From contig JAJYMK010000003.1 of assembly GCA_021786945.1 (NCBI GenBank), forward strand, positions 329,366 through 393,365: DNA of 64,000 nucleotides. The letters are read 5' to 3'. A model generated the notes under the pieces. The model did not search any database. It was not told the DNA's origin and was given only the letters and a program-made list of their open reading frames with translations. This document shows positions 11,904 to 47,346 of the stretch, in pieces (positions within the stretch are counted from its first letter, which is position 1; every line of letters starts with the position of its first letter). The position numbers were made by a program, and so were the translations under genes. Source of the DNA: a bacterium (lineage in GTDB: Bacteria; Patescibacteriota; Minisyncoccia; UBA6257; 02-FULL-45-10c).

Positions 11904-13148
11904 TCAGTTTTTAAGACAACGAACAGGAAATCCCCATGCCCCGCTGTATGAGTACCGAGCTACCGTTGTATAAATAGAAGCCAAAAGCCGCGCCCATGCG
12001 CCACTTCCTCCAGCATCCGAAGACCAAAAGTATGTGTAAGCGTCACGATTACCAAATGACCCAGTAACGCCTCTATAACCAGTTAAAGTACTGTTAAATC
12101 CAGATATTCCGCCAGATTTTAATTTTGTTCCAGCGGCACTACAATCCCAAGTTCCATTCCTAGAAACATTGCAAGTCTGACCCGCATCGGTAAGATATTG
12201 GTCTAGTATATTTTGTTCGGCATCTGTAGGAACGTGCCATCCCACGGGACAGACACCTTGAGCTCCAGCTATTGTTGAACCATGCATAGCGGCCGACCAT
12301 TGATAAACGAAGCCAAATTTATTAGAAATAATGTTAGCAAGTGTTTCTTCGGCGCTATTAGTGGCATTTGGAGGATAAGAATAATAACCATGGTCTAGGC
12401 CATCCCAAGTTGCAGTAACAGGACCTCTGGTTATAGCTGTTCCATCAGGATATTTAGTGGTTCTAATATTCTCAGTCATCCAACATTGTGTGCCAATTAA
12501 AACAGTTGAATAAGAATTATTATCAGCGTCAGTAATTAAGTCTCCACAAGTCAAGCCTGGCAAAATAGCCGAATCTAGGCTCAAATCATTTCCAGTCTCA
12601 AATCTTGTAGAACTTCGTCCTCCATCAGCAACGGCATTCGATGCAAGATATTTGTCGGATTCAAGAGTAGCAGAAAGAGCCCAAGAACCAGGGATATAGG
12701 TGTAGTAGAGACCATTAGCTACGGTATTGACTGGATCAATAGGGAGATTGGAGAAAAGAGTTCCGGCTGAGGATTGAACTGAAGATAGATTGACTGGTAT
12801 CCAACCTGTACCGTCTATATTTCTGTAGTTTCCTGAGGTAGAACAGTGATAGCTACCACTACTGAGAGCTGGGAGACCAAGATCAGAACAATTGGCTTGA
12901 GCGCTTGGTATAGATACATAGACATCACCATGGGTACCCATATTGGTGCTACCTCCAAAGGATTGATACAAGAGAAGAGCTTGGTTTATAGATGTTATCT
13001 CCGTGATTCTATTGGCATCTCTGCTCTGCTTTACCATCTGAGCCGGGTTTATGACCAGGAGAACTGTTGTGGCCAGGACTGCTAATATACCTATGACTAT
13101 CAATAGTTCTATGAGGGTGAAGGCTTTTTGGAATTCAAAACGATTCAT
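11904..13148 (-). CDS. type IV pilin-like protein with C-terminal Fibrobacter-succinogenes-type (FISUMP) domain
   Basis: Prepilin N-terminus QKAFTLIELLIVIGILAV. The C-terminal region has GTQCWMTENIR…, CPVGWHVPTDAEQ…, YFWSSDAGG… and GFPVRCLKN blocks typical of the TIGR02145 paralogous domain. Confidence 0.6.
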   Translation of the reverse strand: MNRFEFQKAFTLIELLIVIGILAVLATTVLLVINPAQMVKQSRDANRITEITSINQALLLYQSFGGSTNMGTHGDVYVSIPSAQANCSDLGLPALSSGSYHCSTSGNYRNIDGTGWIPVNLSSVQSSAGTLFSNLPIDPVNTVANGLYYTYIPGSWALSATLESDKYLASNAVADGGRSSTRFETGNDLSLDSAILPGLTCGDLITDADNNSYSTVLIGTQCWMTENIRTTKYPDGTAITRGPVTATWDGLDHGYYSYPPNATNSAEETLANIISNKFGFVYQWSAAMHGSTIAGAQGVCPVGWHVPTDAEQNILDQYLTDAGQTCNVSRNGTWDCSAAGTKLKSGGISGFNSTLTGYRGVTGSFGNRDAYTYFWSSDAGGSGAWARLLASIYTTVARYSYSGAWGFPVRCLKN

Positions 13149-14166: not shown

Positions 14167-14333
14167 AATTTGTGAATCTTATAATGATTCTATTTTTTTA
14201 ATTAAAAAAGGACCTTTACAGTCCATAGTATATTTGCCCTCACAGCAAATTTTATTTTCCTCGACAGGACTTATGGGTGCCTGTTGTCTATGGATGTACA
14301 TATAATATATACAAAAATGTCCAAATCGTCAAG

Positions 14334-14368
14334 AAAGAAAAAGCCCCGGTTCATTATGAACCGGGGCG
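14334..14368 (-). terminator. terminator hairpin GCCCCGGTTCATTATGAACCGGGGC after AAA+ gene 1
   Basis: A GC hairpin followed by T-run on the minus strand, 7 nt after the stop. Confidence 0.6.
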
Positions 14369-14374
14369 TATTTT

Positions 14375-15706
14375 TTAATCCTTCTTTTCGTCTTTTCCGT
14401 CTTCCTCTTCCTTTTCAAAAACAATTTTGGATTTCTCATTGAGTACGACGTAAATTATGTCTTTCTCTTTGATGAATCCCTTGTTCTTGAGCCGGCAAAG
14501 GGGCTTGCGAAGATATTTGTAAACCTTATTCTTCACGAGCCGTGCGCCATTTTCAGGCTTATCGGTAGCTTCGTTGAGGATGAATTCCTTAACCCTCTCG
14601 TCAAAGACGAGGGTAACCGGAAAACTCTTCAGGACTTTTTCCTGGAATTTGCGCAGTTCCACGTCAACAATCTTGCGCAATATATCCGGACCAAGGGGTC
14701 TGTAAACGCTTATTCTGTCGAGCCGCGCCAGAAATTCCGGCGGGAAAGCTTTCTTAAGCTCTTCGAGGGACTGCTTGTATATTTCTTTATCCAAGACAGA
14801 CTCCTCTTTTTTCTCTATCTTCTGAACGAACCCAAGCTTACCTTTCGGATTCAGTATTTCGGCGATCTGGCGGGAACCGACGTTAGTCGTCATGAGAATA
14901 ACCGAATTGGAAAAATCGGTTATCATGCCGTTGGCCAACTGCAGCTGCGCCTTATCGATGATATTCAGAAGTATATTATGAAGAGCCGGATGGGCTTTTT
15001 CTATCTCATCAAAAAGAATGATGGATTTAGGCCGTTTAACTTCGGTAAATGCCTGCATAGCCGCAAGTCTGTTTACCTCAGACACAACCTTTTCGCGCTC
15101 AGCGAGTATCGGAAAAGCTTCTTTGAGTTTCTTGTTAAGAAGTGGCCATTTCTTTACGTCTACATTTCCCTTCTCGTCAAAAAACTCGGAAAACTCTACC
15201 ATCTGATCGGCTAAGTCATAATTCAACTGAATAAGCTCTTTGACTTTTTCGTTGAATTCTTCTTTCGCCTTGATCATTTTAGGATCCGTGTCTTTTGCGA
15301 ACTTATCGATGCTCCCCTGAAACAGAATGGGAGCAGTGCCCGAATCCCGCGGATCTTTCGGATTCCAGTGGCCAACATAGCCAGCCGGAGAACCGATGAG
15401 TTTGGAAATGCTATGGCTTTCCGAATACGCTTCACACGGAATTTTCGTGAAAGCATTCCTGTCACCAAACCAGTATTCAGCAAGTAATTCAGCCGTTAAG
15501 GTTTTACCGACACCGGAGGGTCCCGCGCACAAACCCACGTAAATAGGTTTGTTTTCCGTAAACATCTCCGACTCGAAAACCTCTATTGCATCGGCCAAAT
15601 CTTTCACTGCCTTATCCTGGCCTTTTATAACAGACAACATGAATTCTAAAAGCCGTAAAGCTTTTTCGCTTGGCTTTTCGCCATCCAACCTTATTCTGCG
15701 TTTCAT
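14375..15706 (-). CDS. standalone Clp/Hsp100 D2-type AAA+ ATPase with ~90-aa insert between Walker A and B
   Basis: ClpB-D2-like entry VIKGQDKAV…PIYVGLCAGPSGVGKT (Walker A). Walker B/sensor block IILFDEIEKAHPALHNILLNIIDKAQL. Sensor-2 EFLARLDRISVYRPLG. Strong SD (GGGGGTGA). GC is elevated (~45%). Confidence 0.7.
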   Translation of the reverse strand: MKRRIRLDGEKPSEKALRLLEFMLSVIKGQDKAVKDLADAIEVFESEMFTENKPIYVGLCAGPSGVGKTLTAELLAEYWFGDRNAFTKIPCEAYSESHSISKLIGSPAGYVGHWNPKDPRDSGTAPILFQGSIDKFAKDTDPKMIKAKEEFNEKVKELIQLNYDLADQMVEFSEFFDEKGNVDVKKWPLLNKKLKEAFPILAEREKVVSEVNRLAAMQAFTEVKRPKSIILFDEIEKAHPALHNILLNIIDKAQLQLANGMITDFSNSVILMTTNVGSRQIAEILNPKGKLGFVQKIEKKEESVLDKEIYKQSLEELKKAFPPEFLARLDRISVYRPLGPDILRKIVDVELRKFQEKVLKSFPVTLVFDERVKEFILNEATDKPENGARLVKNKVYKYLRKPLCRLKNKGFIKEKDIIYVVLNEKSKIVFEKEEEDGKDEKKD

Positions 15707-15789
15707 ACTATCACCCCCGTTATTTAATTTAAAAAGACTCTAATTTAATATTCACCCTTCTAGAAAAAACAGTCAACCCCATTTTTTAA

Positions 15790-15831
15790 AAAAAGAAAAA
15801 GCCCCCCTACTCTTTTCAGAGTAAGGGGGCA
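15790..15831 (-). terminator. terminator hairpin GCCCCCCTACTCTTTTCAGAGTAAGGGGGC after AAA+ gene 2
   Basis: A long GC hairpin plus T-run on the minus strand, directly after the stop codon. Confidence 0.6.
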
Positions 15832-15835
15832 GATT

Positions 15836-17104
15836 TTATTTGACATCGCCAGGCTTCTCCTCTTCACACTGCTTGGAAAAAACCACGTCTTTGCCATCGA
15901 GGTCGACACAGACTATATCCGCTTCTTTTATTTCTTTCCGGTTCCTGAGCCGCGCCATTTCCCGCCTTATGTACTTATCGAACTTGGCAAGAAGCGTCGA
16001 GGCTCCGAATTCCAGACGGTCCAAAGATTCGTTAACGATGAAATTCTTAACTTCATCGCTTATCCTGAGCGAAATAGGAAATGAAGCGTTAACCAGTTCC
16101 GTATAGAACTTATTAAGCTCCAGATCGAAAATCTCGTTCAGAGAATCTTTGAACAGCGGACGGAAAACAGATATCCTGTCAAACGAAGACAGGAAATCAA
16201 GACTTATATTTTCGACCGCAAACTGCATTGAAGATTTATAAATCTTCTTTGCGTCCGAAAGCCGATCATATATAGCCTTGTCCATTTTCTCGATCTGTTC
16301 TTTGCTAGGAGGTTCGAAACCCAGCCTTCCCTTTTTCAGTCCCCTCACCTCTTCCATTATCACATCCGAACTGATGGTGGACGTAACAATAACTATAGAA
16401 TTGGTAAGATCGACTTCTTCGCCGTTTTCGAATCGCACGTATCCGTCTCTCAGCACTCTCTGGATAATACTGAGCATGCCGGGACAAGAACGTTCGAAAT
16501 CACTGAAGACGACGATGGAAAGACTGTTCTGGGGTTTGTAACTGTTGAGCTTCTCCTCAAGAACATTGATTGCATCAACGAGATTAATGCAATGCTTCGT
16601 GGTATCGCCAAGCTTCTGCCGCAGCTCATCTGAGCCGACAGCCGAGTCATTGGCGGTATTACAAAGCCTGAAAAGTTCAGCCTGTTTTTTCTCCAGTATC
16701 TCCTGTAGCTTTTTCTGGCCATTGAATATCCGGCAGTAATCCTTGTTCCTCAGTAAAAGAGGAAGATCGATTTCCGCTCTGGACAACATAGCCGGAACAG
16801 CCGCTACGGTTTCCATATTGAAAGCTCCGCAAGGAATTTCGGAATAATACTTGCTGTTTCCGAAAAATATTTCCGCCAAGCTTTCGACGAAAAGCCGTTT
16901 TCCGACATTTGGCAACCCCAGAAATAATCCCTTATAAATAGGGCTATTTCTGCGCCTCAGTCCGGAAGTCAGGCCTTCAAAGCATTTCACGAAGTTTCCG
17001 ATAACCGGATCCTGACCCTTAATCCTTTCTTTTAACATCGCAAAGAGATTAGAGGCCTTGTCGCTTTTTTCTCCCCGGGAAAGACGTATCATTTTGCGTT
17101 TCAT
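15836..17104 (-). CDS. paralogous Clp-D2-like AAA+ protein with degenerate Walker A/B (predicted pseudo-ATPase)
   Basis: Same architecture as the neighbour (IKGQDPVI…GLFLGLPNVGKRL; SEIPCGAF; FLSSFDRISVFRPL). The residue after the P-loop Lys is R instead of S/T. Walker B reads VVFSDFERSCP rather than hhhhDE. Strong SD AAGGGAGGGG. Confidence 0.65.
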   Translation of the reverse strand: MKRKMIRLSRGEKSDKASNLFAMLKERIKGQDPVIGNFVKCFEGLTSGLRRRNSPIYKGLFLGLPNVGKRLFVESLAEIFFGNSKYYSEIPCGAFNMETVAAVPAMLSRAEIDLPLLLRNKDYCRIFNGQKKLQEILEKKQAELFRLCNTANDSAVGSDELRQKLGDTTKHCINLVDAINVLEEKLNSYKPQNSLSIVVFSDFERSCPGMLSIIQRVLRDGYVRFENGEEVDLTNSIVIVTSTISSDVIMEEVRGLKKGRLGFEPPSKEQIEKMDKAIYDRLSDAKKIYKSSMQFAVENISLDFLSSFDRISVFRPLFKDSLNEIFDLELNKFYTELVNASFPISLRISDEVKNFIVNESLDRLEFGASTLLAKFDKYIRREMARLRNRKEIKEADIVCVDLDGKDVVFSKQCEEEKPGDVK

Positions 17105-17224: not shown

Positions 17225-17953
17225 TTAATCTTTAATTAAAGGCACGAAGCTGAAACCAAAATATTCTTTTTTATCGAAAAAATCTTTAGCTTTTTTCTCC
17301 ACTACCACAATACTATTTTTAACCGGAGCAATAATTTTTCCACCAATTTTTAATTGCTCAAACCAAAAAGCCGGAATTTCATCACTAGCCGCTGCGGCAA
17401 TAATTTTATCGTATGGTTCAAATTCTTTACAACCCAATGATCCATCTCCAATAATTAATTTTACTATTCCCTGCTTCTCAAATCCATACTTAGACATATT
17501 TTCTCTAGCGAATTTCTGAAGCTCTTCAATCCTCTCCACTGAAATAACTGAATAAGAAATTGAGGTCAGGGTACCTTGGGCGATAATTTCTTTCTGAGTT
17601 TTGTCTTCACTCCCAACAAACTCAGCTCTTTGCTCTATCTCTTTTTTCATATGGGTTAAAATATACGCCATCAGAGCAGTTTTCCAACCAGAACCGGTAC
17701 CAATCTCTAAAACTCGCTCTCCGATTTTTAAATCCAAAAGCTCCAGCATAAAAGCCACGACAAGCGGCTGGGAAATCGTCTGTTCAAAACCGATAGATAG
17801 AGCTTCGTTGGAATAAGCATTGTTTTTTTTCTGTTCCGGCACAAAATCCTTTCTGTCTATATTTTTAAAAGCCTCTATGATTACCGGATTTTTTAAATAA
17901 CCATCCTTTTTTAAAAGCTCTATAAGTTCTTCGTTTGTGTTTAAGACTGCCAT
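17225..17953 (-). CDS. pcm: protein-L-isoaspartate O-methyltransferase
   Basis: TISQPLVVAFMLELL…RVLEIGTGSGWKTALMA is the PIMT SAM-binding signature. GC is native-like (low). Confidence 0.85.
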   Translation of the reverse strand: MAVLNTNEELIELLKKDGYLKNPVIIEAFKNIDRKDFVPEQKKNNAYSNEALSIGFEQTISQPLVVAFMLELLDLKIGERVLEIGTGSGWKTALMAYILTHMKKEIEQRAEFVGSEDKTQKEIIAQGTLTSISYSVISVERIEELQKFARENMSKYGFEKQGIVKLIIGDGSLGCKEFEPYDKIIAAAASDEIPAFWFEQLKIGGKIIAPVKNSIVVVEKKAKDFFDKKEYFGFSFVPLIKD

Positions 17954-18014: not shown

Positions 18015-20180
18015 CTAGAACTTGGCCTGGTCTTTCTTGGATTTCAGATACATGGGATAGTAGTCGCGATACTCGGACGCTATCCTCGTGATCTTCTTCC
18101 CTTCCTTGTCCGTGAACACCTCATTGATGAACATGCCCAGTGACGGCAGCATGGCGTGAGTTTCCAGGAATTCATCCGGGCCTTTAAGGCACGGAACGAG
18201 GATTCCCACGCGCTCATCGTAGAGCATGAACGAGGAGTGGAAGTGGCCGAGATAAGCTATTGCCGGTAAGCCGCCGCTCTCACCGCTTTCGCGGATAAGC
18301 TTCAGGTGTTTTTCAACCTGCGGCGACAGCGAATAGCCCAGCCCGCCCTCGGGGTGTATCAGTTTGTGGTAGATCCCATCCACCACAACCGACCCGAACA
18401 TCGAACCCAGATACCGCAGAAGACCCGACAGCCTGATCGACAGGGTCCTCACGATAAGATGGCCGATGGATTTCCAAGCCCAAGCATCGTGATTGCCTTC
18501 GATGATGTCGGTCTGGAGCCAAACTTCTTTCTGGCTCTTTTCCGTCCTGGTGACGTAGCTTATAGTGCCATCGTCGTTGTTGATCATTTCCGAGACCAGG
18601 ATAGGCTTCTTAGGGTCTACTTTGATCTTCACTTTAGGCCAGTTAGCCACCGCGTGGTTTTCCATGCCGTCGAGATCAGAGAACTTAACGTCGAAGTTAT
18701 GTCCCCTGTAACCCGCCGCAGCAGGGCCATCGGTAACGTCACCGGGATGATACATGCGCCGCACGCCGGCGTCAGCAGCATCCTGATAGGCCTTCTTGAA
18801 GATGTCGGGCAGTTCTTTCTTGCTGCCGCTGTGATTATCCGAAACAGAGGCTTCCTTGGTTGCGAAGACGTAAACGTCCTCGTACTTCAAAGGAAGCGGC
18901 GCAAACTTCCGCTTAACCGACACTTCGAGTTCGTAACGCTTGGTGTCAGGCTTGAACGGAATTTTGATGCCGCAGTTAGACAGCCTCTTGATAATCCCGG
19001 CGACTCCTTCCTTACCCATCTTCAGCCTGCGCGAAAGATCGCCGGCCGATATGATATGCTCCTTCACGAACCAGCCCAGGACCTGCTTCGAAACATCATC
19101 CAGGTTGGCAGCGCGGGACACATTTATGTCGTAGACATCGTTGGTAATGGTGTAGTGATCCAGAGCGTTAAGGTAAACCTTAAGGCCCACAGACGGATCA
19201 AACATCCAGTTATCCCCGAAGCTAAGCTCGGCGATCGTGTAACCCACACGGGGTTCCACGCCGCGGCGTCCCTGACGCATCATTCTCTTGTGAAGGCTCG
19301 GCACGGTCTCTATGAACATGCCGTTGTACTTGGGTAAGCGAGCTCGGCGGTGCAGACCGCCAAAGACCAGAAGCATCGGCTTCGGATCATCTTTCAAGGC
19401 GTTCGCGATTTTCTGCGGCCCATAGCTTACAGCTTTCGGGCTATTGTCGTCCCACGGGGACATCGCTTTGATGCGGACACCTTTTATGTCGAAAGACTTC
19501 TCCAGTTCGCCGGCTTTGCGGAGGTCTTCGCGCTTGTTGCAGATAGCCGACACTATGTCGATGCCGTCTTTTGCCCTCCAGGAAAGTTCTCCCTTACCGC
19601 TTACGATGTAGGTTTTGAACTTTTTGCTCCTGGGGAAACAGTCAACGACGTAGTCGGCCAGCTCCTGCGCGTCACCGAAGAGCGCATCCGATTCGGTCGT
19701 AGCGGTAGGCTTGCTCATTACTAAGCCGCCAACCACCACAACGAAGTCGATATCTTCTTTTACGAAGACGACCTCGTAAAGCCAGTGCAGAAGACTTATC
19801 TGCGCCTGCTTTGACCCCATACGGATCTCAGAGAGGAAAGCAACCTTAAACTTCTTGTTGCTTATCGATATAGGAATCGCCTCTTCACTTTCATCGCCCT
19901 CAACGGCAGTGCTGAGAAACAGCTTTCTGTCCTTGGTGACGTGAATGTTGTAGCCCTTGTCGTTGAGTTTCTCCGCGACGTCCAGCAGATCCTGGATGCT
20001 CGTATTTAAGGCTTTCGCCAGAGCATCTTCGGACTTGTCGGACTTCTTGGTCTTCAACAGAACCAGGAGCCTGAGCTCTTTCTCTTCTTGAGAGAGAGAG
20101 GGGTGCGCTTTTTCGTTGCTCATTTCGGACTTACCGGAGGGCAAGTCCGATTTTTTTTGCTTCTTGCCCTTCTTTTCCAT
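18015..20180 (-). CDS. large (721 aa) protein: degenerate N-terminal phosphoesterase-like region plus intact C-terminal calcineurin-like metallophosphoesterase domain
   Basis: C-terminal half carries SDNHSG (motif I-like), HPGDVTDG (GDxxDG), IEGNHDAWAW (GNHD) and YLGHFHSSF (GHxH). N-terminal half has VAFLSEIRMGS and FVVVVGGLV in the equivalent positions, which look degenerate. Start is set at MEKKGKKQ, which has the SD GGGGGTAG. GC is ~50%, against ~35% background. Confidence 0.55.
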   Translation of the reverse strand: MEKKGKKQKKSDLPSGKSEMSNEKAHPSLSQEEKELRLLVLLKTKKSDKSEDALAKALNTSIQDLLDVAEKLNDKGYNIHVTKDRKLFLSTAVEGDESEEAIPISISNKKFKVAFLSEIRMGSKQAQISLLHWLYEVVFVKEDIDFVVVVGGLVMSKPTATTESDALFGDAQELADYVVDCFPRSKKFKTYIVSGKGELSWRAKDGIDIVSAICNKREDLRKAGELEKSFDIKGVRIKAMSPWDDNSPKAVSYGPQKIANALKDDPKPMLLVFGGLHRRARLPKYNGMFIETVPSLHKRMMRQGRRGVEPRVGYTIAELSFGDNWMFDPSVGLKVYLNALDHYTITNDVYDINVSRAANLDDVSKQVLGWFVKEHIISAGDLSRRLKMGKEGVAGIIKRLSNCGIKIPFKPDTKRYELEVSVKRKFAPLPLKYEDVYVFATKEASVSDNHSGSKKELPDIFKKAYQDAADAGVRRMYHPGDVTDGPAAAGYRGHNFDVKFSDLDGMENHAVANWPKVKIKVDPKKPILVSEMINNDDGTISYVTRTEKSQKEVWLQTDIIEGNHDAWAWKSIGHLIVRTLSIRLSGLLRYLGSMFGSVVVDGIYHKLIHPEGGLGYSLSPQVEKHLKLIRESGESGGLPAIAYLGHFHSSFMLYDERVGILVPCLKGPDEFLETHAMLPSLGMFINEVFTDKEGKKITRIASEYRDYYPMYLKSKKDQAKF

Positions 20181-20487
20181 AATACTACCCCCTTTTAAAT
20201 CCAAGATTTTAGAACCTATACTGCTAATAGCTTCCAAACGCGATACGGGTAAATTTTATACAGAACAAGGAGCGAGGAGGAAATTTATAGTTTTAACTAT
20301 ATTTCCGACAAGCGATGCATGTTATATATACAAATTTACAGTATCCCGAAGGGTTGTGGTCTAAATAATGTGTTTAGGAATTATTAGCAGGATAGGTTCT
20401 TTTTTTAAAGAACTACTTATAATTTAAGTATAAGACCCAGCCGAAATATAATGCAATAGGGCAAAAGTTTTTTTGAATAAAAAATAA

Positions 20488-37873: not shown

Positions 37874-39385
37874 ATGCGCGTATTATCAAAAAATTCCATA
37901 TATATAATAACAGCTGTTGCTCTTGCCGCCCTGGCTTTTTCTACGCTCAACTTCTACATCCTCGGCTTTTTCTATATAGCTCCCTATTTTTTATTCCTGA
38001 TTAAAAACGACGATTTAAAAACTTTGCTTTGGGGCAGCTTTGTTTTCTGTTTTTTATTTCTCATAGCCACAGCCTACGTGACTTTCGAGCCGCTACTCTT
38101 CCTGGCTTCTTCGGCAATATTTTTGGGACTGCCAGTTTCTTTTTTCCTTATCAAAAAACTAATCAGGGAAAAGTTCGCAATGTTTTCCCTTCCGGTAATC
38201 TGGACTTTTTGGAATATTGTGTGGGCATACTACAGCCCGCTTCCATTCACGGTATTAACCGCGGGAAATACTTTGGGAATATCGCCGTTTGTGGGGATAG
38301 CGGCCACAGGAGGAATTATTGCCCTTACCCTATTTACCGCCATCGTCAATTTTCTTGTTATGCTTTTTCTTCTAAATATAAAACCGGGCTTTAATAAAAA
38401 ATCTTTTTTAATTTTTACGATAGCATTGTTAATTATTTCGGGCGGATATATATATTCAAAAACCCAATTAAAAATAAATTCTAGGCATTATTTAAATCTT
38501 AAAAACACCATTAACGTGGCTTCGGTTTCAATAAATTCAGATTTCGATAAAAATTTTGATGTCTTCAAAAATGATGAACTCTCAAGCGAAGAAAAGATAA
38601 AAGCAATCCCGCTTATACAAAGCACCTTGGAACCTATAAAAGAAGGACTTAAAAACAAGAATTCCGATCTGATAATTTTACCTGAAGACATGATAGATAT
38701 AACTAGTAAAAACGATACCGACGAGGAAGCTTATCAGAAATATCAAATAACAAATGCCGGAATCCTGATTAGGGCCTATCGTGAAATGGCGAAAGAACTG
38801 AATTCCAACATTCTCAGTATTATGACGACTATCAAATACGATAAAAGAAGTATTAGCGGTATTTTATTCGATAAGAAGGGCGAAATCTCCGGCGTTTACG
38901 ACAAATCCACACTTACCATAGGAAGCGAGTACTGGCCGTTTAAAAACTGGAGGCCATTCTACTACAACTGGATCGGCCAAATAATTCCGGACATTAAAGA
39001 CGATAGCCCTATATTCGATCAAAAATATTCTTATCAGGCCGGAAAAATGACCGTTTTAAAAAATAATTATTTACCGGAAATCGCTTCTCCAATTTGTGTA
39101 GAAATATTTTATCCGGAAAAACTTAAAGAATTCAGAAATCTTGGAGCAAAAATAATAATTCATTCTTCCAGCAATGTATGGACTGTAGCTTATGGCTTAA
39201 ATAGCTATCTGAAGCTCAGCGACAGAATAAGAATAATAGAATCCGTTTGGTTAAAAACACCGGTAATCTTCAATGGCAGAAGCGAGATGGCCGGAATAGT
39301 TACGCCCGGCGGGAACATAGAAAAACAGGCGTATGAAGCAAATAATAAAAATTTCGGAATAAAATTTACAGATCTTAAATTTTAA
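37874..39385 (+). CDS. apolipoprotein N-acyltransferase-like (polytopic N-terminus plus CN-hydrolase domain)
   Basis: 6-8 N-terminal TM helices. The C-terminal nitrilase-like region has IILPEDM (Glu), a Lys region, and SPICVEIFYPE (Cys). Confidence 0.6.
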   Translation: MRVLSKNSIYIITAVALAALAFSTLNFYILGFFYIAPYFLFLIKNDDLKTLLWGSFVFCFLFLIATAYVTFEPLLFLASSAIFLGLPVSFFLIKKLIREKFAMFSLPVIWTFWNIVWAYYSPLPFTVLTAGNTLGISPFVGIAATGGIIALTLFTAIVNFLVMLFLLNIKPGFNKKSFLIFTIALLIISGGYIYSKTQLKINSRHYLNLKNTINVASVSINSDFDKNFDVFKNDELSSEEKIKAIPLIQSTLEPIKEGLKNKNSDLIILPEDMIDITSKNDTDEEAYQKYQITNAGILIRAYREMAKELNSNILSIMTTIKYDKRSISGILFDKKGEISGVYDKSTLTIGSEYWPFKNWRPFYYNWIGQIIPDIKDDSPIFDQKYSYQAGKMTVLKNNYLPEIASPICVEIFYPEKLKEFRNLGAKIIIHSSSNVWTVAYGLNSYLKLSDRIRIIESVWLKTPVIFNGRSEMAGIVTPGGNIEKQAYEANNKNFGIKFTDLKF

Positions 39386-41094
39386 ATAGCTATATCGGGA
39401 GTAATAAAAAATTCTTTCAGAAATTTATTTTTTGTTTGTTCTTGGGATGTTTTTATTTGTCCAAAAATATCGGCTATAGGCCTGGACTGCAAATAATGCT
39501 GAGCGAAAACATCGCCCATCAGCTTAAAAATAGTCGGGTGAAAAATAGAATTAACCTCTGGCTCCCCCATTGAGTATTTAGAAATCGGTTCAATGGAAAA
39601 AATATCGCTAAGTTTATTATTTTTAAATATGATATTCGGTACGCTTACGGCCAAATTTTTAAAATCATTTTTCGAGCAACTATTCATACACACTAGCGAA
39701 AAACCGAAATTTTGATCAAAAAAATCGTAAACGGGCGGATGATAAGGAATCCCAACCAAACCAGCAGATTCAAGGGTCGCCAAAATCGCCTTTTGCACCG
39801 ATCCGAAATATGCCTCACTCTGTATCACGGAAACCCCATTTTCAGCCAAAACAGATTTAAGTAAAACATAAAACTCTTTGGAATAAAGATGTGAGAGGCC
39901 ATCGTCAGTCGGATCGGGAAAATCAACAAAAACCAAATCATATTTTTCTTTTTTTTGCTGCTCCACAAATTTAAATGCATCGGAAATAACCACATTAACT
40001 TTAGGATCAAAAAAAGCGCTATTGTTTAACGCTTTCATAAAACCTAGATTAGAGGAAGCTGAAATAATTGCCGGATCAATATCAACCAGGGTAATTTTTT
40101 TTACATCCGGATATTTTAAAATTTCCCGCAATGCCAACCCGTCACCCCCGCCTAACACAAGAATATTTTCATGTTTTAAGGCTAAACTCATGGCGGGATG
40201 AATAAAGGATTCATGGTAAACAGCATCCCAATCTCCCGACTCAAACTGCCTTTGCCCGTTTATATAGAGACTTATTTTACCGTCACTCGCTTTTAAAAAT
40301 GTAAGACGCTGATACGGTGAATTAATATGATAAAGGATTTCTCTATCCCCGAATTGCTTTTTCTCAAAAAATAATTCTAGCGATTCACCATTTATAAATC
40401 CCAGCATATTTACTAAAAATACAGCAATAAAAACAATGGGGAGAATTATTTTCCCCTTTTTAATATCGGATGCCGCCAATACAAAAACTGCGGCTAAAAT
40501 ATTTATAATGCCTATTAAAAAAGATGTCTTTATGAGCCCGAAGTTAGCAAAAAAGAAAATCGGTAGCGACACGGAAATTATTAAGGCGCCGATATAATCC
40601 CAAAAAAAGGCCCTACCTATAGCATCTTTCAATATTTCTTTTTCCGAAAGAATCCTTATGTACAAAGGGAGTTCAAAACCCGCCAAAACGCCTACAAAAG
40701 AAATAAAAAATAAGGAGAAGGCTGTAAATAATAACTGGGCTCCGGCTAAACCGCCAAGAAAAGCAATAATATCCGGGAATTTTAAATTTCCGAAGAAAGA
40801 AAAGAAATAGGCATAGGCGCCAAAAAGCACCGTGCTAATCGAGCCGCCTACTAAGGCTATCAAAACCTCAACAAAAACCAGCTTTTCATAAATACCTTCT
40901 TTTATTTTTGCCGAAAGCCACCCGCCTATACCCAAAGCAGCCAAGAAAAAACCTATAATCAGCGAAAAATAATAAATAGATGAGCCGAGCAAATTTGATA
41001 AAACGCTGCCGGCTAAAATTTCGTACCCTATAACCGCTACCGAGGACAGAAAAACCGACAATATTATTAATCTCTTAGTTATTCTTTCATTCAT
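39382..41094 (-). CDS. membrane-bound spermidine synthase-like aminopropyltransferase
   Basis: A polytopic N-terminal half. The C-terminal SpeE fold has VLGGGDGLALREILKYPDVKKITLVDIDPAII. Confidence 0.7.
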   Translation of the reverse strand: MNERITKRLIILSVFLSSVAVIGYEILAGSVLSNLLGSSIYYFSLIIGFFLAALGIGGWLSAKIKEGIYEKLVFVEVLIALVGGSISTVLFGAYAYFFSFFGNLKFPDIIAFLGGLAGAQLLFTAFSLFFISFVGVLAGFELPLYIRILSEKEILKDAIGRAFFWDYIGALIISVSLPIFFFANFGLIKTSFLIGIINILAAVFVLAASDIKKGKIILPIVFIAVFLVNMLGFINGESLELFFEKKQFGDREILYHINSPYQRLTFLKASDGKISLYINGQRQFESGDWDAVYHESFIHPAMSLALKHENILVLGGGDGLALREILKYPDVKKITLVDIDPAIISASSNLGFMKALNNSAFFDPKVNVVISDAFKFVEQQKKEKYDLVFVDFPDPTDDGLSHLYSKEFYVLLKSVLAENGVSVIQSEAYFGSVQKAILATLESAGLVGIPYHPPVYDFFDQNFGFSLVCMNSCSKNDFKNLAVSVPNIIFKNNKLSDIFSIEPISKYSMGEPEVNSIFHPTIFKLMGDVFAQHYLQSRPIADIFGQIKTSQEQTKNKFLKEFFITPDIAI

Positions 41095-43253: not shown

Positions 43254-44879
43254 ATGAAAAATATTTTTAGTAAAAATAGAATGTTACTGGCCGCCATGTT
43301 CATTACTGCTTTTTCGAGCATGGTTTATGAATTTGTATTGGCCAACACACTCACCTTCCTTTTAGGTGATACCATCCTCTACTACACTCTCGTTATAGGA
43401 TTCTTCATGCTTTCTCTGGGTATTGGATCTTATTTATCCTATAAAATTGGTCTGGATCCTATAACAAAACAACATCATGACTTTAAAAGTTCAAAAGCAT
43501 TGGTTATTGCCCAATTATTTCTTGGTTTAATAGGCGGAGGATCTTCTTTTGCGATACTTTATCTGGGAGGCTCTTCTATTCATGCACAAAACGCTCTTAC
43601 CGAAAGCAGCGGACTAATTAAAATACTCTTGGCTTCCACTATCCCCCTGCATCTTATAGCTTTAATTTTAATATGCGGCATTGGATTGCTGGTGGGACTG
43701 GAAATACCTCTTATTTACAGACTTCTGGAACGCACAGAAAAAAGATTGGCTTTGGTATTGGCAGCTGACTATCTCGGATCCTTTGTGGGATCTTCAATGT
43801 TTTCTTTGTTTTTGCTGCCGACCCTCGGAATACTAAGGGTTTCTTTTTTGGCTGGGATTCTCAATCTGTCCGCCGGACTTCTCCTTATTTTTTCCAGACA
43901 AGAAATTTCCAAAAAAATATTCCTCACCCTCTATGCAATACTTGCAATTATATTATGCTGGGGCTTCTCAAACTCCGACAGCTTGGAAAACTATTTGGAC
44001 ACGATTTACTATTCCGGAGATAATCCAGTAACAATCGTTGAAAGAATAAACTCGCCATATCAAAAAATTGTACTGACCGAAAGAAAAGAAAAAGAGAGAA
44101 ATGAAATCTCTCTTTTTTTAAATGGCTATTTGCAATTCGACTCCAAAGACGAATCACAGACATATCACAAAACCCTTGTTGATCCCGCTTTTTATCTGGC
44201 CAAAAATCATAAAAATATATTGATCTTGGGGGGCGGCGACGGTTTACCGGCTCAAGAAGTGCTTAGACAGCCCGGCGTTGAAAAGATTACAGACGTAGAC
44301 ATAGACAAGGCTATAGTAGATCTGGCCAAAGACAACAGCTTGTTAAGCGAATTCAACGGGCATGCATTTAGCGATCCAAAAGTTAACATCGTAATACAAG
44401 ATGCCTTTTTATATGTAAGAAATTCGCATGAAAAATTCGATGTTATCGTTGTAGATTTCCCGGAGGGCGTTGATATTCCCCTAGCTAGATCATATTCAAT
44501 ACAATTTATAAAAGACCTTGGAAGAATTCTTTCGCCTGGAGGCGTAATCGCTTTCCAAGTTGATACCTTCGATACATTAAGCTATTGGTCTGTAGTAAAA
44601 ACAATAGCTGCTTCCGGACTTTATATTCTTCCCACGCACACCATTCCGCCACAAGGAGCTTCTTTTGAAAAAGAAGGAATAATATTTGCAAGCAACTCCA
44701 GCTTTGATTTGTCCAATCTTAAAGAAGATTACGCTTTCTGGGCAAAATCTCTTTTAAACGGACAAAGCCTGCAATTCTCCAATAAACTCAGCCAGGTAGA
44801 CATAAACACCTTCTACAGGCCAATTTTCCTTCATTATTTCAAGAAAGAATTCTGGGCATCCTTCTGGATTGGGTTATAA
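43254..44879 (+). CDS. membrane-bound spermidine synthase-like protein (paralog of 39382-41094)
   Basis: A polytopic N-terminus. The SpeE fold has ILILGGGDGLPAQEVLRQPGVEKITDVDIDKAIV. Confidence 0.7.
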   Translation: MKNIFSKNRMLLAAMFITAFSSMVYEFVLANTLTFLLGDTILYYTLVIGFFMLSLGIGSYLSYKIGLDPITKQHHDFKSSKALVIAQLFLGLIGGGSSFAILYLGGSSIHAQNALTESSGLIKILLASTIPLHLIALILICGIGLLVGLEIPLIYRLLERTEKRLALVLAADYLGSFVGSSMFSLFLLPTLGILRVSFLAGILNLSAGLLLIFSRQEISKKIFLTLYAILAIILCWGFSNSDSLENYLDTIYYSGDNPVTIVERINSPYQKIVLTERKEKERNEISLFLNGYLQFDSKDESQTYHKTLVDPAFYLAKNHKNILILGGGDGLPAQEVLRQPGVEKITDVDIDKAIVDLAKDNSLLSEFNGHAFSDPKVNIVIQDAFLYVRNSHEKFDVIVVDFPEGVDIPLARSYSIQFIKDLGRILSPGGVIAFQVDTFDTLSYWSVVKTIAASGLYILPTHTIPPQGASFEKEGIIFASNSSFDLSNLKEDYAFWAKSLLNGQSLQFSNKLSQVDINTFYRPIFLHYFKKEFWASFWIGL

Positions 44880-45745: not shown

Positions 45746-47299
45746 CTATTGATACGCTTTCTCGCAATTACCCAAATTATTACATACATATCCAGACGAA
45801 CAAGTTCCACAAGAAATAGTTCCACCGCAGCCGTTGTCTACACCACCGCAGGTCCTAGAAATACAAGCGGTTGTAGTAGCTGTCGGAGTACAACTACTAG
45901 AATCAACACAAGCTCCGTTTGTACAAACTTGGCCGGAAGAACAAACTAATTCCGGCATTACCAACCTTGTAACACCGCAGTTGCTTACCTGGGAAATCTG
46001 CGAAGTTCCGCAAATAGTTTTAACATCGGGAGTATAAGAAGACGAAGTGCAAGTAAAACTCGGGATTCCGGAAGGAACAACGGGAATACTATTTGCATCA
46101 TTTAAAATCTGAACTGATAGCTTTGCTATATCACTATCGCTTGTAAATCCGAGAGTTTTTAAGAAGCTGCTTATATCGCATTGACCACCAATAAACTTAC
46201 TATTCTGATAATCAAACGAAGAAAGGCTGAAACAATCAAATGTATTACCCTTGGCAGTTACCTGCACCATAGCACCGGTATATAGGTTCTCTCCGGCTAC
46301 GGAAGCTACGTTAAACTTACCGTCACTTAAATCATTTTTGCTAATAACAACAGATGGACTTACGGGTTCCGGTAAAGTTATTTTAAAACAATCTTTACAC
46401 TCGCTCATTTTTCCGTCTGGATTCTGGATTCTTACGCTCCAAGCTCCAGTAGGCGCATCGGTAATATTACAAACGCCACCAGTAAGAGTTCTAGAATCCG
46501 GTACAGTAAAACCAGTACAATCAACACTTTTACCATCGTTTACCAAAGAAACTTTCGTATCCTTTGAAAATCCAGCGCCAGTGAGAGTCATCGCGTTAGT
46601 TAAATATTGAACGTTGGTTGGAGCCGAAACCACATCGCCATCGCTGCAACCAGCAGCATTACAAGCCACAACTTTATAATAAAAAGGTTTAGTTGGATCC
46701 TGAATTCTGTTTTCCAAGAAAAATCTTTGCCCATTATTCATCTCGGTAGTGGTTATAACGGTAGATAAGGAAGACGCACTCGTTCCTCGATAAATTTTAT
46801 AAGAGACACTCGAGGCTCCACCTAAAGAAGAAGGGGCGTCCCAATAAACTCTGAATCCGTGGTTAATATAAGTTCCGTCTTCATATTTATTAGAAACTTG
46901 AACGTTTAAAGGTTTTGACGGGATAGTTTGAATGGTTGAGGGGCCCGTTGGATTTATACCGGATCCCGTTTCTAGACAAACCGTACCAAACGAACCCAAA
47001 CAAGTACCCGCAGAAACAAGACCGGTAAATTGTTCCGCGATTTGATTTACCGGGCAAGAAAGGCCAAAAGTAACGCCGCATTGACCTACGCCGGAAACAA
47101 TATTAACCACATTGCCAACCATTTGAGCCACCGGTGCCACAACGGCATTATAAACAGTATTCACTACAGGTATGCTATTTATTATATTTTCTCCAATTGA
47201 AACAACTGTGCCAATAACAGGCGTGCCCTTTGCTTGAGCGGCGGGTACCACCAAAATTGAACCGACCAGAACTAATGATAATAATATTTTTTTATACAT
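45746..47299 (-). CDS. large secreted protein with Fn3-like module and Cys-rich C-terminus
   Basis: A signal peptide. Fn3-like block YKIYRGTSASSLS…YYKVVACNAAGCS. C-terminal CxxC-rich region. Confidence 0.45.
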   Translation of the reverse strand: MYKKILLSLVLVGSILVVPAAQAKGTPVIGTVVSIGENIINSIPVVNTVYNAVVAPVAQMVGNVVNIVSGVGQCGVTFGLSCPVNQIAEQFTGLVSAGTCLGSFGTVCLETGSGINPTGPSTIQTIPSKPLNVQVSNKYEDGTYINHGFRVYWDAPSSLGGASSVSYKIYRGTSASSLSTVITTTEMNNGQRFFLENRIQDPTKPFYYKVVACNAAGCSDGDVVSAPTNVQYLTNAMTLTGAGFSKDTKVSLVNDGKSVDCTGFTVPDSRTLTGGVCNITDAPTGAWSVRIQNPDGKMSECKDCFKITLPEPVSPSVVISKNDLSDGKFNVASVAGENLYTGAMVQVTAKGNTFDCFSLSSFDYQNSKFIGGQCDISSFLKTLGFTSDSDIAKLSVQILNDANSIPVVPSGIPSFTCTSSSYTPDVKTICGTSQISQVSNCGVTRLVMPELVCSSGQVCTNGACVDSSSCTPTATTTACISRTCGGVDNGCGGTISCGTCSSGYVCNNLGNCEKAYQ

Positions 47300-47346
47300 A
47301 TTTTTATTTTTTCGCCGACTGGCGATTTTAATTTATTTTTTAAAAA

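What the first reader, a model, noticed from the sequence alone, without database searches (positions are those of the whole stretch)
14375..17104. Tandem standalone ClpB-D2-like AAA+ paralogs: one canonical, one with degenerated Walker A and B, both with a ~90-aa insert
Both proteins (443 and 422 aa) consist of a single Hsp100 second-nucleotide-binding-domain homolog: the GQDxAV entry, the P-loop, the DEIEKAHP-type Walker B/sensor-1 block, and the sensor-2 FLxRxDRISVxRPL.

Between the IGSPAGYVG block and Walker B both carry a ~90-residue charged, helical insertion that canonical ClpB/ClpA D2 lacks. It resembles in position, but not sequence, the HslU I-domain.

Gene 2 has GLPNVGKR (Arg in the S/T position) and VVFSDFERS (DE lost), so it is predicted to be catalytically dead. 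Active/inactive AAA+ pairs typically form obligate hetero-oligomers.
Basis: seen in the sequence. Interest (0 to 1): 0.8.

Follow-up and report, generated by a model that had tools for sequence, protein, structure and literature searches.

The report
Single-ring Clp unfoldase plus dead paralog
Two neighbouring genes in a tiny-genome (CPR/Patescibacteria) bacterium encode a stripped-down, one-ring version of the Clp protein-unfolding motor and a conserved "dead" copy of it; both keep the loop that normally plugs such motors onto the ClpP protease, so this looks like an undescribed minimal protein-degradation machine with a built-in non-catalytic subunit.

Summary
Gene A (14375-15706, 443 aa) and gene B (15836-17104, 422 aa) are paralogs (32% identity, E 2e-54). 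Each is a single Hsp100 D2-type AAA+ module carrying a ~100-residue insert, which AlphaFold2 models as an antiparallel coiled-coil hairpin.

B is more degenerate than reported. It has lost the pore-1 loop, the Walker A Thr, Walker B Asp and Glu, sensor 1, the arginine finger and sensor 2. It is nevertheless intact in 14 orthologs under purifying selection (dN/dS about 0.1).

The interpretation needs correcting:
- Both proteins carry a hydrophobic-Gly-Phe loop at the position of the ClpC1 LGF and ClpX IGF ClpP-docking loops, which ClpB lacks. They look like ClpP partners, not ClpB-like disaggregases.
- A belongs to a large, unnamed family (>100 clusters at 50% identity). Named members are all Patescibacteria; some are fused to a Lon N-domain.
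- "Obligate hetero-oligomer" is not supported. Close relatives keep A without B, and B and A are separate transcription units. An alternating A3B3 ring would have no complete ATPase site.

ClpP co-occurrence and A-B contact could not be tested. Verdict: new variant of a known kind, of moderate interest.

The parts
14375..15706 (-). Gene A: catalytically intact single-module Clp/Hsp100 D2-type AAA+ protein, 443 aa
15500..15523 (-). A Walker A, GPSGVGKT (residues 62-69)
   Evidence: G62, G67 and K68 invariant in the family
15371..15382 (-). A pore-1 loop, GYVG (residues 109-112)
   Evidence: aligns to the GYVG of ClpB NBD2
15296..15367 (-). A conserved post-pore element, W-x-P...G-T-x-P-I-L-x-Q-x-x-I-D (residues 114-137), the first part of the insert
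   Evidence: P126, L128, Q130, I133 and D134 are nearly invariant across 47 family members
15047..15283 (-). A antiparallel coiled-coil hairpin (helices 142-173 and 184-220), variable in sequence and length across the family
   Evidence: AF2 secondary structure, pLDDT 80-91; low sequence conservation; insert length 75-190 aa across the family
14999..15022 (-). A Walker B, IILFDEIE (D233, E234)
14882..14890 (-). A sensor 1, TTN (N275)
14828..14839 (-). A KLGF: hydrophobic-Gly-Phe tripeptide in a flexible loop, putative ClpP-docking loop
   Evidence: Conserved as [ILMV]-G-[FLY] in all family members examined; aligns to ClpC1 NLGF in 8xon while ClpB has a gap there; ClpX block starts at the same place; low pLDDT 49-67
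14717..14734 (-). A arginine-finger block, FLARLD (R328)
   Evidence: spacing to sensor 2 matches T. thermophilus ClpB
14540..14548 (-). A sensor 2, GAR (R389)
15836..17104 (-). Gene B: conserved pseudo-ATPase paralog, 422 aa
   Evidence: ORF; 32% identity to A; Pfam; 14 orthologs with 69% mean column identity; dN/dS 0.08-0.11; AF2 pLDDT 82; Foldseek top hits are ClpC in ClpCP complexes and ClpB NBD2
16895..16918 (-). B degenerate Walker A, GLPNVGKR (Lys kept, Thr replaced by Arg or Lys)
16736..16816 (-). B segment replacing the pore-1 loop region (METVAAVPAMLSRAEIDLPLLL...); no aromatic pore loop
   Evidence: Gap opposite GSPAGYVGH in all 14 B orthologs
16541..16744 (-). B coiled-coil hairpin (helices 121-153 and 159-188)
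   Evidence: AF2
16493..16516 (-). B degenerate Walker B, IVVFSDFE (Asp to Ser, Glu to Asp)
16376..16384 (-). B sensor-1 position, TST (Asn to Thr)
16316..16327 (-). B RLGF: hydrophobic-Gly-Phe loop retained (G262 and F263 invariant)
   Evidence: the loop has pLDDT below 50
16178..16195 (-). B arginine-finger block, FLSSFD (Arg to Ser; Leu in some orthologs)
15998..16006 (-). B sensor-2 position, GAS (Arg to Ser or Ala)
15801..15830 (-). Intrinsic-terminator-like hairpin (13 bp, 8 GC, T-run) 5 nt after the B stop codon
   Evidence: equivalent hairpins with different stem sequences in L088, L092, L093, L094 and L090
15747..15776 (-). Promoter-like site (TTGACT-18-AATATT) upstream of A, followed by an RBS (GGGGGTGA)
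   Evidence: GGGTTGAC...AATATTAAAT conserved in five orthologous intergenic regions
14343..14367 (-). Terminator-like hairpin after the A stop codon, ahead of the L10 leader and rplJ
   Evidence: L10_leader match at 14195-14311
17225..17953 (-). Context: protein-L-isoaspartate O-methyltransferase (PCMT), conserved upstream neighbour
   Evidence: Pfam E 6.8e-56; same position in L001, L003, L088, L092-L094 and L098
18015..20237 (-). Context: conserved ~720-aa hypothetical protein (BIG) with a C-terminal metallophosphoesterase-like half and wHTH-like stretches; GC 0.52

Best explanation
**A: the working subunit.** A is the active subunit of a minimal, single-ring Clp/Hsp100-type protein unfoldase. 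So far the family is named only in Patescibacteria (CPR).
- It is one ClpC/ClpA/ClpB-D2-type AAA+ module with every catalytic element and a GYVG pore-1 loop. It should therefore form a ring that threads polypeptides using ATP (inferred from homology).
- A conserved 25-residue element follows the pore loop, and then a variable antiparallel coiled-coil hairpin grows out of the helix between the pore loop and Walker B. This is the site where HslU carries its I-domain. On a hexamer these hairpins would most likely form a crown around the entry of the channel and act as the substrate or adaptor receptor, since the protein has no N-domain (inferred).
- On the opposite face, a flexible hydrophobic-Gly-Phe loop sits at the position of the ClpC1 LGF and ClpX IGF loops. 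It most likely docks the ring onto ClpP, making A a third kind of single-ring partner of a self-compartmentalised peptidase (ClpP here), beside ClpX (ClpP) and HslU (HslV) (inferred; ClpP co-occurrence untested).

**B: the dead paralog.** B is an old paralog kept by purifying selection.
- It retains the fold, the hairpin, the D2-small domain, the P-loop lysine and the LGF loop.
- It has lost the pore-1 loop and every hydrolysis residue, including the trans-acting arginine finger.
- It cannot translocate, hydrolyse ATP, or activate a neighbour's site.
- It has its own promoter and terminator and is dispensable in close relatives.

Most likely B is an accessory, non-catalytic subunit. It would either enter A rings in a minority position (for example A5B1 or A4B2, which leaves A-A interfaces active) or compete with A for the ClpP surface, and so tune the machine. 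It is not an obligate alternating partner.

For: **The insert is a coiled-coil hairpin.** AF2 models have pLDDT 85 and 82. The start of the insert is conserved and the hairpin itself is variable.

**The hydrophobic-Gly-Phe loop.**
- It is present in all A, B and B2 sequences in the 68-sequence family alignment (IGF 27, LGF 26, MGF 7, plus IGL, VGF and IGY). It is also present in most of the wider family.
- It aligns to the NLGF of the ClpC1 chain in the Streptomyces ClpC1:ClpP1P2 structure 8xon, while T. thermophilus ClpB has gaps there.
- A family profile matches ClpX starting at this loop (profile 280-413 against ClpX 258-395, E 1e-16).
- The loops have low pLDDT, as flexible docking loops do.
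- PMC10149685 states that LGF loops dock ClpC onto ClpP, that ClpB lacks them, and that their presence discriminates ClpC from ClpB.

**Quality-control context.** Longer relatives fuse the same module to a Lon N-terminal substrate-binding domain. PCMT, a protein-repair enzyme, is the conserved upstream neighbour.

**B is functional but dead.** There are 14 intact orthologs whose degenerate motifs are themselves invariant. dN/dS is 0.08-0.11.

**B is an accessory.**
- In six orthologous loci (L088, L090, L092, L093, L094, L099), as in the window itself, B lies immediately upstream of A.
- A occurs without B in syntenic L003 and L001, and no B-family protein from those contigs appeared.
- The terminator and promoter between B and A are conserved, with different stem sequences.
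Against: - No clpP gene lies in the 64-kb window or in any fetched locus. The rest of the genome could not be read, so the proposed protease partner is unverified.
- Overall similarity is as high to ClpB NBD2 as to ClpC D2 (299 versus 292 bits). The top NCBIfam matches are ClpV and ClpB.
- Nothing here tests physical contact between A and B.
- A second degenerate type (P0135) sits alone in the A slot on a 96.5-kb contig with no A-type gene seen from that contig. This hints that dead paralogs can act without an adjacent A.
- The B+B2 grouping could be long-branch attraction.
- The orientation of the hairpin relative to the pore was not inspected, because no coordinates were available.
Confidence: 0.5

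Rival explanations
1. One reading: A and B form an obligate, probably alternating, hetero-hexamer that works as a ClpB-like stand-alone chaperone or disaggregase. The dead subunit would be a structural or regulatory partner, as in other active/inactive AAA+ pairs.
For: - The tandem arrangement is conserved in all six orthologous loci checked.
- B is under purifying selection.
- Both keep the same fold and hairpin.
- Top HMM matches include ClpB.
Against: - A is present without B in close syntenic relatives.
- B and A are separate transcription units.
- B lacks the arginine finger. In an alternating ring, every A site would therefore lack its trans arginine and every B site its cis residues, leaving no complete ATPase site (reasoning from AAA+ ring geometry).
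- Both proteins carry the ClpP-type loop that ClpB lacks.
Confidence: 0.12
2. B acts on its own. It would form a non-translocating ring or oligomer that occupies ClpP through its LGF loops. It could be a cap, a gate-opener or a competitive inhibitor of A, or it could be a passive holdase using its hairpins. In this model it does not mix with A in one ring.
For: - The LGF loop is invariant in B although all motor functions are gone.
- B has its own promoter and terminator.
- The related degenerate protein P0135 stands alone in the A slot in another lineage.
- The strict conservation of GLPNVGK[RK] suggests that a ligand, possibly nucleotide, is still bound.
Against: - AAA+ ring assembly usually depends on nucleotide held at intact interfaces, and B lacks the arginine finger and sensor 2.
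- The window-type B was found only immediately next to A.
- There is no direct test.
Confidence: 0.22
3. The hydrophobic-Gly-Phe loop does not bind ClpP. A would be a protease-independent remodeller, or would work with another partner encoded nearby. Candidates are the conserved ~720-aa phosphoesterase-like protein, PCMT, or in distant members a trypsin-like protease.
For: - The BIG-PCMT-A order is conserved even at about 55% BIG identity.
- Trypsin_2 lies next to the distant member P0057.
- No clpP is seen nearby.
- ClpP-partner unfoldases are known to act alone in some contexts (PMC10149685, discussion).
Against: - The whole region is syntenic housekeeping DNA (rpsB-tsf ... rplJL-mraZ), so gene order may reflect descent and not function.
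- The tripeptide, its position and its flexible-loop context match the ClpP-docking loops of ClpC1 and ClpX.
- Two of the loci carry an unrelated large protein in the BIG position.
Confidence: 0.15
4. The pair, with the neighbouring phosphoesterase-like protein, is an anti-phage or conflict system that uses a ClpB-like ATPase, like the Dodola DolB or PDC-M37 candidates.
For: There are weak to moderate PADLOC hits of A to PDC-M37B (E 5e-26) and DolB (E 3e-13). An effector-like metallophosphoesterase lies nearby.
Against: - The PADLOC scores (90 bits) are well below the ClpB and ClpC scores (about 190 bits) and cover only generic AAA_2 blocks.
- BIG has no PADLOC hit.
- The locus sits in a conserved housekeeping neighbourhood and is inherited vertically across relatives, with congruent A and B trees.
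- No mobile-element features were seen.
Confidence: 0.04
5. B is a decaying pseudogene or an annotation artefact.
For: All catalytic motifs are lost.
Against: - B has a full-length ORF in 14 orthologs down to 42% identity.
- dN/dS is about 0.1.
- The degenerate motifs are themselves invariant.
- B has a confident AF2 fold and its own RBS, promoter and terminator.
Confidence: 0.01

Closest known systems
ClpC / ClpC1 / ClpA D2 ring (ClpP-partner Hsp100 proteins)
   Same: - Same AAA_2 + D2-small module, GYVG pore loop, Walker, sensor and arginine-finger set.
- Same hydrophobic-Gly-Phe loop after sensor 1. It aligns to the ClpC1 NLGF.
- S. aureus ClpC scores 292 bits against the family profile.
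   Different: - No Clp_N domain, no D1 ring and no M-domain; the protein is a single ring.
- It has a ~100-residue insert after the pore loop that ClpC and ClpA lack.
- The NCBIfam ClpA model scores 171 bits against a cut-off of 993.
ClpB NBD2 and human CLPB/Skd3 (a single-ring D2-type disaggregase)
   Different: - ClpB and Skd3 lack the ClpP-docking loop; ClpB shows gaps at that position (PMC10149685).
- Skd3 has an ankyrin N-domain.
- Neither has the post-pore coiled-coil insert.
HslU (its I-domain)
   Same: - Single-ring HCLR-clade unfoldase.
- It carries a helical domain inserted between the GYVG pore loop and Walker B, projecting from the entry face (position known from the HslU structures; my own knowledge).
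   Different: - No sequence similarity in the insert.
- HslU docks HslV through C-terminal tails, not a hydrophobic-Gly-Phe loop.
- HslU is much less similar overall than ClpB or ClpC.
ClpX
   Same: - Single-ring ClpP partner.
- The IGF loop is at the homologous position.
- The arginine finger and GAR sensor 2 align.
   Different: - A has no zinc-binding N-domain.
- ClpX has no post-pore insert.
ClpI (Actinomycetota; PMC10149685)
   Same: ClpI is a Clp class recognised only by bioinformatics. It is intermediate between ClpB and ClpC in similarity and is classified by the presence or absence of the LGF loop.
   Different: ClpI is double-ringed with an N-domain and an M-domain, has no dead paralog, and belongs to a different phylum.
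Torsin with LAP1/LULL1, and other active/inactive AAA+ pairs
   Different: In Torsin/LAP1 the dead partner donates the arginine finger that activates the ATPase (my own knowledge). B has lost that arginine, so this mechanism cannot apply.
LonB and LonC AAA+ modules
   Same: These are HCLR-clade protease motors. LonB carries a domain inserted into its AAA+ module. LonC has an AAA-like module that has lost ATPase activity through replacement of essential residues (PMC9569914).

Membership tests
Hsp100/Clp D2-type AAA+ module (Pfam AAA_2 + ClpB_D2-small) | AAA_2 and ClpB_D2-small domains above the Pfam gathering scores | tested here: met
   A scores 117.6 and 36.9 bits, B 32.0 and 26.5 bits, against cut-offs of 27 and 21.9
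Hsp100/Clp D2-type AAA+ module (Pfam AAA_2 + ClpB_D2-small) | The fold superposes best on solved D2 rings | tested here: met
ClpB (stand-alone disaggregase) | Two AAA+ rings (D1 and D2) with a long M-domain in D1 | tested here: not met
   Only one AAA+ module of 443 or 422 aa, with the match restricted to NBD2. TIGR03346 scores 188 bits against a cut-off of 1232
ClpB (stand-alone disaggregase) | Absence of the ClpP-docking LGF/IGL loop | tested here: not met
   The KLGF and RLGF loops are present and conserved, and T. thermophilus ClpB is gapped there. The criterion comes from PMC10149685
ClpC/ClpA/ClpE (double-ring ClpP partners) | Hydrophobic-Gly-Phe/Leu loop after sensor 1 of D2 | tested here: met
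ClpC/ClpA/ClpE (double-ring ClpP partners) | Clp_N domain and D1 ring | tested here: not met
   No such Pfam hits; the protein starts at the D2 linker helix. TIGR02639 scores 171 bits against a cut-off of 993
ClpC/ClpA/ClpE (double-ring ClpP partners) | Physical and functional coupling to ClpP, with clpP present in the genome | not testable with these tools
   No clpP in the window or in the fetched loci.
ClpX | N-terminal C4 zinc-binding domain and a ClpX-specific profile score | tested here: not met
HslU | I-domain inserted between the pore-1 loop and Walker B | tested here: inconclusive
   An insert exists at the same topological site. It shows no detectable sequence relation to the I-domain, and residue-level equivalence to HslU was not computed
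HslU | Overall orthology to HslU | tested here: not met
Active/inactive AAA+ hetero-oligomer | The dead paralog always co-occurs with an active partner | tested here: met
   For the window-type B, B lies immediately upstream of A in all six orthologous loci checked, as in the window. The B2-type P0135 is an apparent exception
Active/inactive AAA+ hetero-oligomer | The active partner depends on the dead one (obligate pairing) | tested here: not met
   A alone is found in syntenic L003 and L001 and in most of the more than 100 family clusters
Active/inactive AAA+ hetero-oligomer | The dead partner supplies the trans arginine finger (Torsin/LAP1 type) | tested here: not met
   FLSSFD or FLSLFD replaces FLARLD in all 14 B orthologs
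Active/inactive AAA+ hetero-oligomer | Direct A-B contact in one ring | not testable with these tools

The most novel reading that the evidence does not exclude
A and B would build a naturally asymmetric ClpP-docked ring. One or two fixed subunits would have no pore loop, no ATPase and no arginine finger, but would keep a ClpP-docking loop and a receptor hairpin. That would be a hard-wired "seam" in a protein translocase. It would provide a natural experiment on how many working subunits a hand-over-hand AAA+ motor needs, and it would establish a third class of single-ring partner for a self-compartmentalised peptidase (beside ClpX and HslU), one found so far only in CPR bacteria.
Probability: 0.2. 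Interest if true: 0.75.

Novelty: new variant of a known kind. Interest (0 to 1): 0.55.

Why it matters
**Proteostasis in CPR bacteria.** CPR/Patescibacteria have tiny genomes, and how they maintain their proteins is almost unstudied. This locus points to a large, unnamed family of minimal Clp motors. Each has one D2-type ring, an HslU-style receptor insert and a ClpP-type docking loop. Some members have recruited a Lon N-domain. If A docks on ClpP, the textbook list of ClpP partners (ClpX, ClpA, ClpC, ClpE) gains a structurally distinct single-ring member.

**The dead paralog as a natural experiment.** B keeps only the docking loop and the receptor hairpin. That makes it a natural dissection of which parts of an AAA+ subunit matter apart from motor activity. 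It could be used to test models of subunit coordination and ClpP gating.

**Limits.** The parts are individually familiar and the function remains inferred, so this is a solid lead, not a surprise of the first rank.

Tried and rejected
- **Metagenome-contig scan with the B alignment.** Only 4 loci were returned. They were useful, but too few for statistics.
- **Search for ClpP.** Motif scans of the window and of all 98 loci fetched by that point found none. The rest of the genome could not be reached, so this says nothing about presence or absence.
- **Literature.** Nine full-text searches found no description of a single-ring D2-type Clp protein with such an insert, of its dead paralog, or of Clp systems in Parcubacteria.
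- **PADLOC.** Only generic AAA_2-level hits appeared, so the defence reading was rejected.
- **BIG protein.** No Pfam hit for the window copy, no PDB relative and no named homolog.
- **afdb50 fold search.** The library was not available.
- **First tree script.** It timed out. I redid it with a faster NJ and bootstrap. This is a simple distance method, and the B+B2 clade may be long-branch attraction.
- **Cluster and contig look-ups.** They gave no accession or organism name for the window genome.
- **Considered and rejected:** B as a pseudogene; orthology of A or B to HslU or ClpX; a Torsin/LAP1-type activation mechanism.

Full report
**1. What is there**

The two ORFs lie exactly where reported, on the minus strand. 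A is 14375-15706 (443 aa) and B is 15836-17104 (422 aa). They are full-length paralogs with 32% identity, E 2e-54. Both pass the Pfam gathering scores for AAA_2 and ClpB_D2-small. NCBIfam models for ClpV, ClpB and ClpA match only their D2 part, far below the equivalog cut-offs. The best solved relative is T. thermophilus ClpB NBD2 (A E 5e-46, B E 1.2e-22).

ClpB NBD2 aligns in two blocks. In A, residues 114-223 face about 11 residues of ClpB. In B the gap covers residues 90-193. The net insert of about 100 residues is real.

The window is ordinary CPR-type housekeeping DNA. It holds aminoacyl-tRNA synthetase genes, dnaB, ligA, type IV pilus genes, and a dcw cluster next to rplJL.

**2. Motif states**

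I aligned 68 homologs and rechecked the result on 135 further cluster representatives.

| Element | A and its orthologs | B and its 13 orthologs |
|---|---|---|
| Walker A | GPSGVGKT | GLPNVGK[RK] |
| Pore-1 loop | GYVG | deleted |
| Walker B | FDEIE | FSDFE |
| Sensor 1 | Asn | Thr |
| Arginine-finger block | FLARLD | FLS[SL]FD |
| Sensor 2 | GAR | GA[SA] |

The degenerate versions in B are conserved as such. Its Arg lies 59 residues before the GAR Arg in T. thermophilus ClpB on the alignment. That agrees with the R747/R806 numbering, which I cite from my own knowledge. B is therefore more thoroughly dead than reported, and it cannot donate an arginine finger.

**3. B is not a pseudogene**

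- Fourteen orthologs down to 42% identity keep the full ORF, with 69% mean column identity.
- dN/dS against four orthologs is 0.08-0.11. A gives 0.035-0.12. dS is saturated, so these are rough figures.
- The AF2 model is confident, with pLDDT 82.

**4. Structure**

AF2 gives A a pLDDT of 85. The insert begins with a conserved stretch, W-x-P...G-T-x-P-I-L-x-Q-x-x-I-D. In it P126, L128, Q130, I133 and D134 are nearly invariant across the family. Two long antiparallel helices follow (142-173 and 184-220), poorly conserved and variable in length. B has the same hairpin (121-153 and 159-188).

The insert site, between the pore-1 loop and the Walker B strand, is where HslU carries its I-domain (my own knowledge). 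LonB also has a domain inserted in its AAA+ module, and LonC has lost ATPase activity through residue replacements (PMC9569914).

**5. The feature that changes the interpretation**

After sensor 1 both proteins have a longer, low-confidence loop containing KLGF (A 290-293) or RLGF (B 260-263).

- A hydrophobic-Gly-Phe/Leu/Tyr tripeptide is present at this place in every A, B and B2 sequence in the family alignment and in most of the wider family.
- This segment's best solved match is the ClpC1 chain of the Streptomyces ClpC1:ClpP1P2 complex (8xon). There NLGF aligns to KLGF, while T. thermophilus ClpB has gaps.
- A family profile matches ClpX beginning at this loop.

PMC10149685 states that LGF loops dock ClpC onto ClpP and that ClpB lacks them. 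It also states that their presence or absence discriminates ClpC from ClpB. By that criterion A and B are ClpP-partner-type, not ClpB-type. In overall similarity they sit between ClpB and ClpC (299 against 292 bits).

I found no clpP in the window or in any fetched locus, and I could not read the rest of the genome. ClpP docking is therefore an inference.

**6. Family and distribution**

The word-indexed search found about 50 full-length relatives of A. They are named only "AAA family ATPase" or "ClpA", and the named ones come from Patescibacteria, Minisyncoccota or Parcubacteria.

A profile search of 1.84 billion cluster representatives listed its best 150 hits. Most of them are single-module proteins of 400-520 aa matched in one stretch across the insert. 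Their inserts run 75-190 residues, their catalytic motifs are intact and they have a hydrophobic-Gly-Phe loop. This is a sizeable unnamed family.

Several longer members (657-952 aa) place a Lon N-terminal substrate-binding domain in front of the same module and have no protease domain. That fits a protein-quality-control role.

Among the 150 best representatives, only the B type and a second type, B2, are degenerate. B2 is represented by P0135 and by the second gene of locus L004. It keeps Walker A, the Walker B Asp, the sensor-1 Asn and the sensor-2 Arg. It has lost the pore loop, the Walker B Glu (now His) and the arginine finger (now His).

**7. Gene context and history**

- The order BIG (~720 aa) - PCMT - B - A - rplJ - rplL - mraZ recurs in the window, L088, L093 and L094. 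It also recurs in L092 up to A, where that contig ends. B-A adjacency is also seen in L090 and L099.
- Relatives whose A is 74% (L003) and 59% (L001) identical have PCMT - A - rplJ with no B. No B-family protein from those contigs appeared.
- A more distant member (L098) still shows BIG - PCMT - A.
- L004 has a BIG-like gene, then A, then a B2 gene. L007 has an unrelated 820-aa gene, then P0135 alone, then rplJ.
- In an NJ tree, B and B2 group together (84% bootstrap). B is not sister to its neighbouring A clade (1%). The B tree is congruent with the A tree of the same genomes.

I read this as an old duplication followed by repeated loss of the dead copy. Long-branch attraction cannot be excluded.

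**8. Transcription signals**

- Five nucleotides after the B stop codon lies a 13-bp GC-rich hairpin with a T-run (15830-15801).
- A TTGACT-18-AATATT site (15776-15747) follows, and then a strong RBS before A.
- The same layout occurs in five orthologous intergenic regions with different stem sequences, which argues that the hairpin is functional.
- A is followed by its own terminator (14367-14343) and by an L10-leader-like element at 14195-14311. That element scores 37.7 bits, below the gathering score of 44.

B and A thus look monocistronic and separately controllable.

**9. How it most likely works**

*Shown:* A has every element of a working D2-type motor. B has none of the motor elements but keeps the fold, the hairpin and the docking-type loop, and it is under selection. 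A can exist without B.

*Inferred:*
- A forms a ring that threads substrates.
- The hairpins crown the entry face and serve as the substrate or adaptor receptor, in the absence of any N-domain.
- The hydrophobic-Gly-Phe loops dock the ring on ClpP.
- B is an accessory subunit, not an obligate one.

Geometry supports the last point. ATP sites in AAA+ rings are completed in trans by the neighbour's arginine finger. In an alternating A3B3 ring, every A site would face a B subunit without that arginine, and every B site lacks its own catalytic residues, so no site would be complete. Rings with a minority of B (A5B1 or A4B2) would keep active A-A interfaces. Alternatively, B could compete with A for the ClpP surface. 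That B keeps its LGF loop makes sense in either case.

My estimates:

| Claim | Probability |
|---|---|
| A is an active single-ring Clp-type unfoldase | 0.85 |
| A docks on ClpP | 0.55 |
| B is a functional pseudo-ATPase | 0.85 |
| B enters mixed rings with A | 0.4 |
| B acts as a separate oligomer on ClpP | 0.2-0.3 |

**10. Comparison and novelty**

The closest known things are the D2 rings of ClpC/ClpC1/ClpA (same docking loop) and ClpB NBD2 with human Skd3 (best overall match). Skd3 shows that one D2-type ring can work alone. ClpX is the single-ring ClpP partner, and HslU shares the insert position. ClpI is a Clp class defined bioinformatically by LGF presence (PMC10149685). Torsin/LAP1 is the active/dead pair.

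The locus fails the defining tests for membership in ClpB, ClpC/A, ClpX and HslU, and for the Torsin/LAP1 mechanism (see the membership table). Nine literature searches found no description of this architecture or of the pair.

I rate it a new variant of a known kind, of moderate interest (0.55). The parts are familiar. The combination and the natural dead subunit are not. The key functional claims still need a genome-wide ClpP check and biochemistry.

Noticed in passing
window 18015-20237 (-): The conserved ~720-aa hypothetical protein (BIG) has GC 0.52 and GC3 0.67 in a 0.38-GC window. Its orthologs are also GC3-rich (0.45-0.59), and A and B are mildly raised (GC3 about 0.51). The C-terminal half has metallophosphoesterase motifs (DNH, GDxxD, GNHD, GHFH). 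The N-terminal half looks like a degenerate copy, and each half is preceded by a wHTH-like stretch. Its 29 homologs are all unnamed, and the only taxon-level source name is Candidatus Liptonbacteria (CPR). At least 7 lie on the same contigs as A-family genes. In the B-bearing genomes it is 77-87% identical, generally more conserved than A (70-90%) or B (62-80%); A is higher only in L088 (90% against 84%).
   Followed up: partly
P0167/P0279, P0200, P0201, P0211, P0224, P0230; loci L095-L097: Longer relatives of A fuse a Lon N-terminal substrate-binding domain (PF02190) to the same insert-bearing D2-type module, with no protease domain. This is a Lon-N/Clp-motor chimera that appears undescribed. 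One source names such a protein 'DNA polymerase III delta prime subunit'.
   Followed up: partly
L007:6001-7185 (P0135) and L004:7354-8496: A second kind of degenerate paralog (B2) has an intact Walker A, no pore loop, Walker B Glu replaced by His, and the arginine finger replaced by His. In L004 it follows an active A-type gene. In L007 it sits alone in the A slot between an 820-aa ORF and rplJ, and no A-type gene was seen from that 96.5-kb contig.
   Followed up: partly
window 14195-14311 (-): There is a full-length match to the ribosomal protein L10 leader (RF00557) upstream of rplJ. It scores 37.7 bits, below the gathering score of 44 (E 0.002). The sequence is conserved in the orthologous loci.
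   Followed up: partly
L001:2560-5097 and L007:3430-5892: In two related loci the position upstream of the AAA+ gene is occupied by a different large protein (820-845 aa; the two are 51% identical to each other). It has no detectable similarity to BIG and no Pfam domain.
   Followed up: no
L006:7385-8119 and L005:4869-5903: The distant family member P0057 is followed by a 244-aa Trypsin_2 protease gene. Member P0039 is preceded by a holB-like (DNA polymerase III delta-prime) gene.
   Followed up: no
window 11904-13148 (-): This 414-aa protein has an N-terminal type IV pilin-like signal (FTLIELLIVIGILAVLA) and a large C-terminal domain. It sits between rplL and mraZ, where relatives have shorter or no genes.
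   Followed up: no
window 45746-48735 (-): Two adjacent ORFs of 517 and 462 aa have no Pfam match. They lie in a stretch of slightly raised GC (0.41-0.42), next to the type IV pilus genes.
   Followed up: no
window 39382-41094 (-) and 43254-44879 (+): Two large paralogous proteins (570 and 541 aa) each carry a spermidine-synthase-like domain in their C-terminal half.
   Followed up: no
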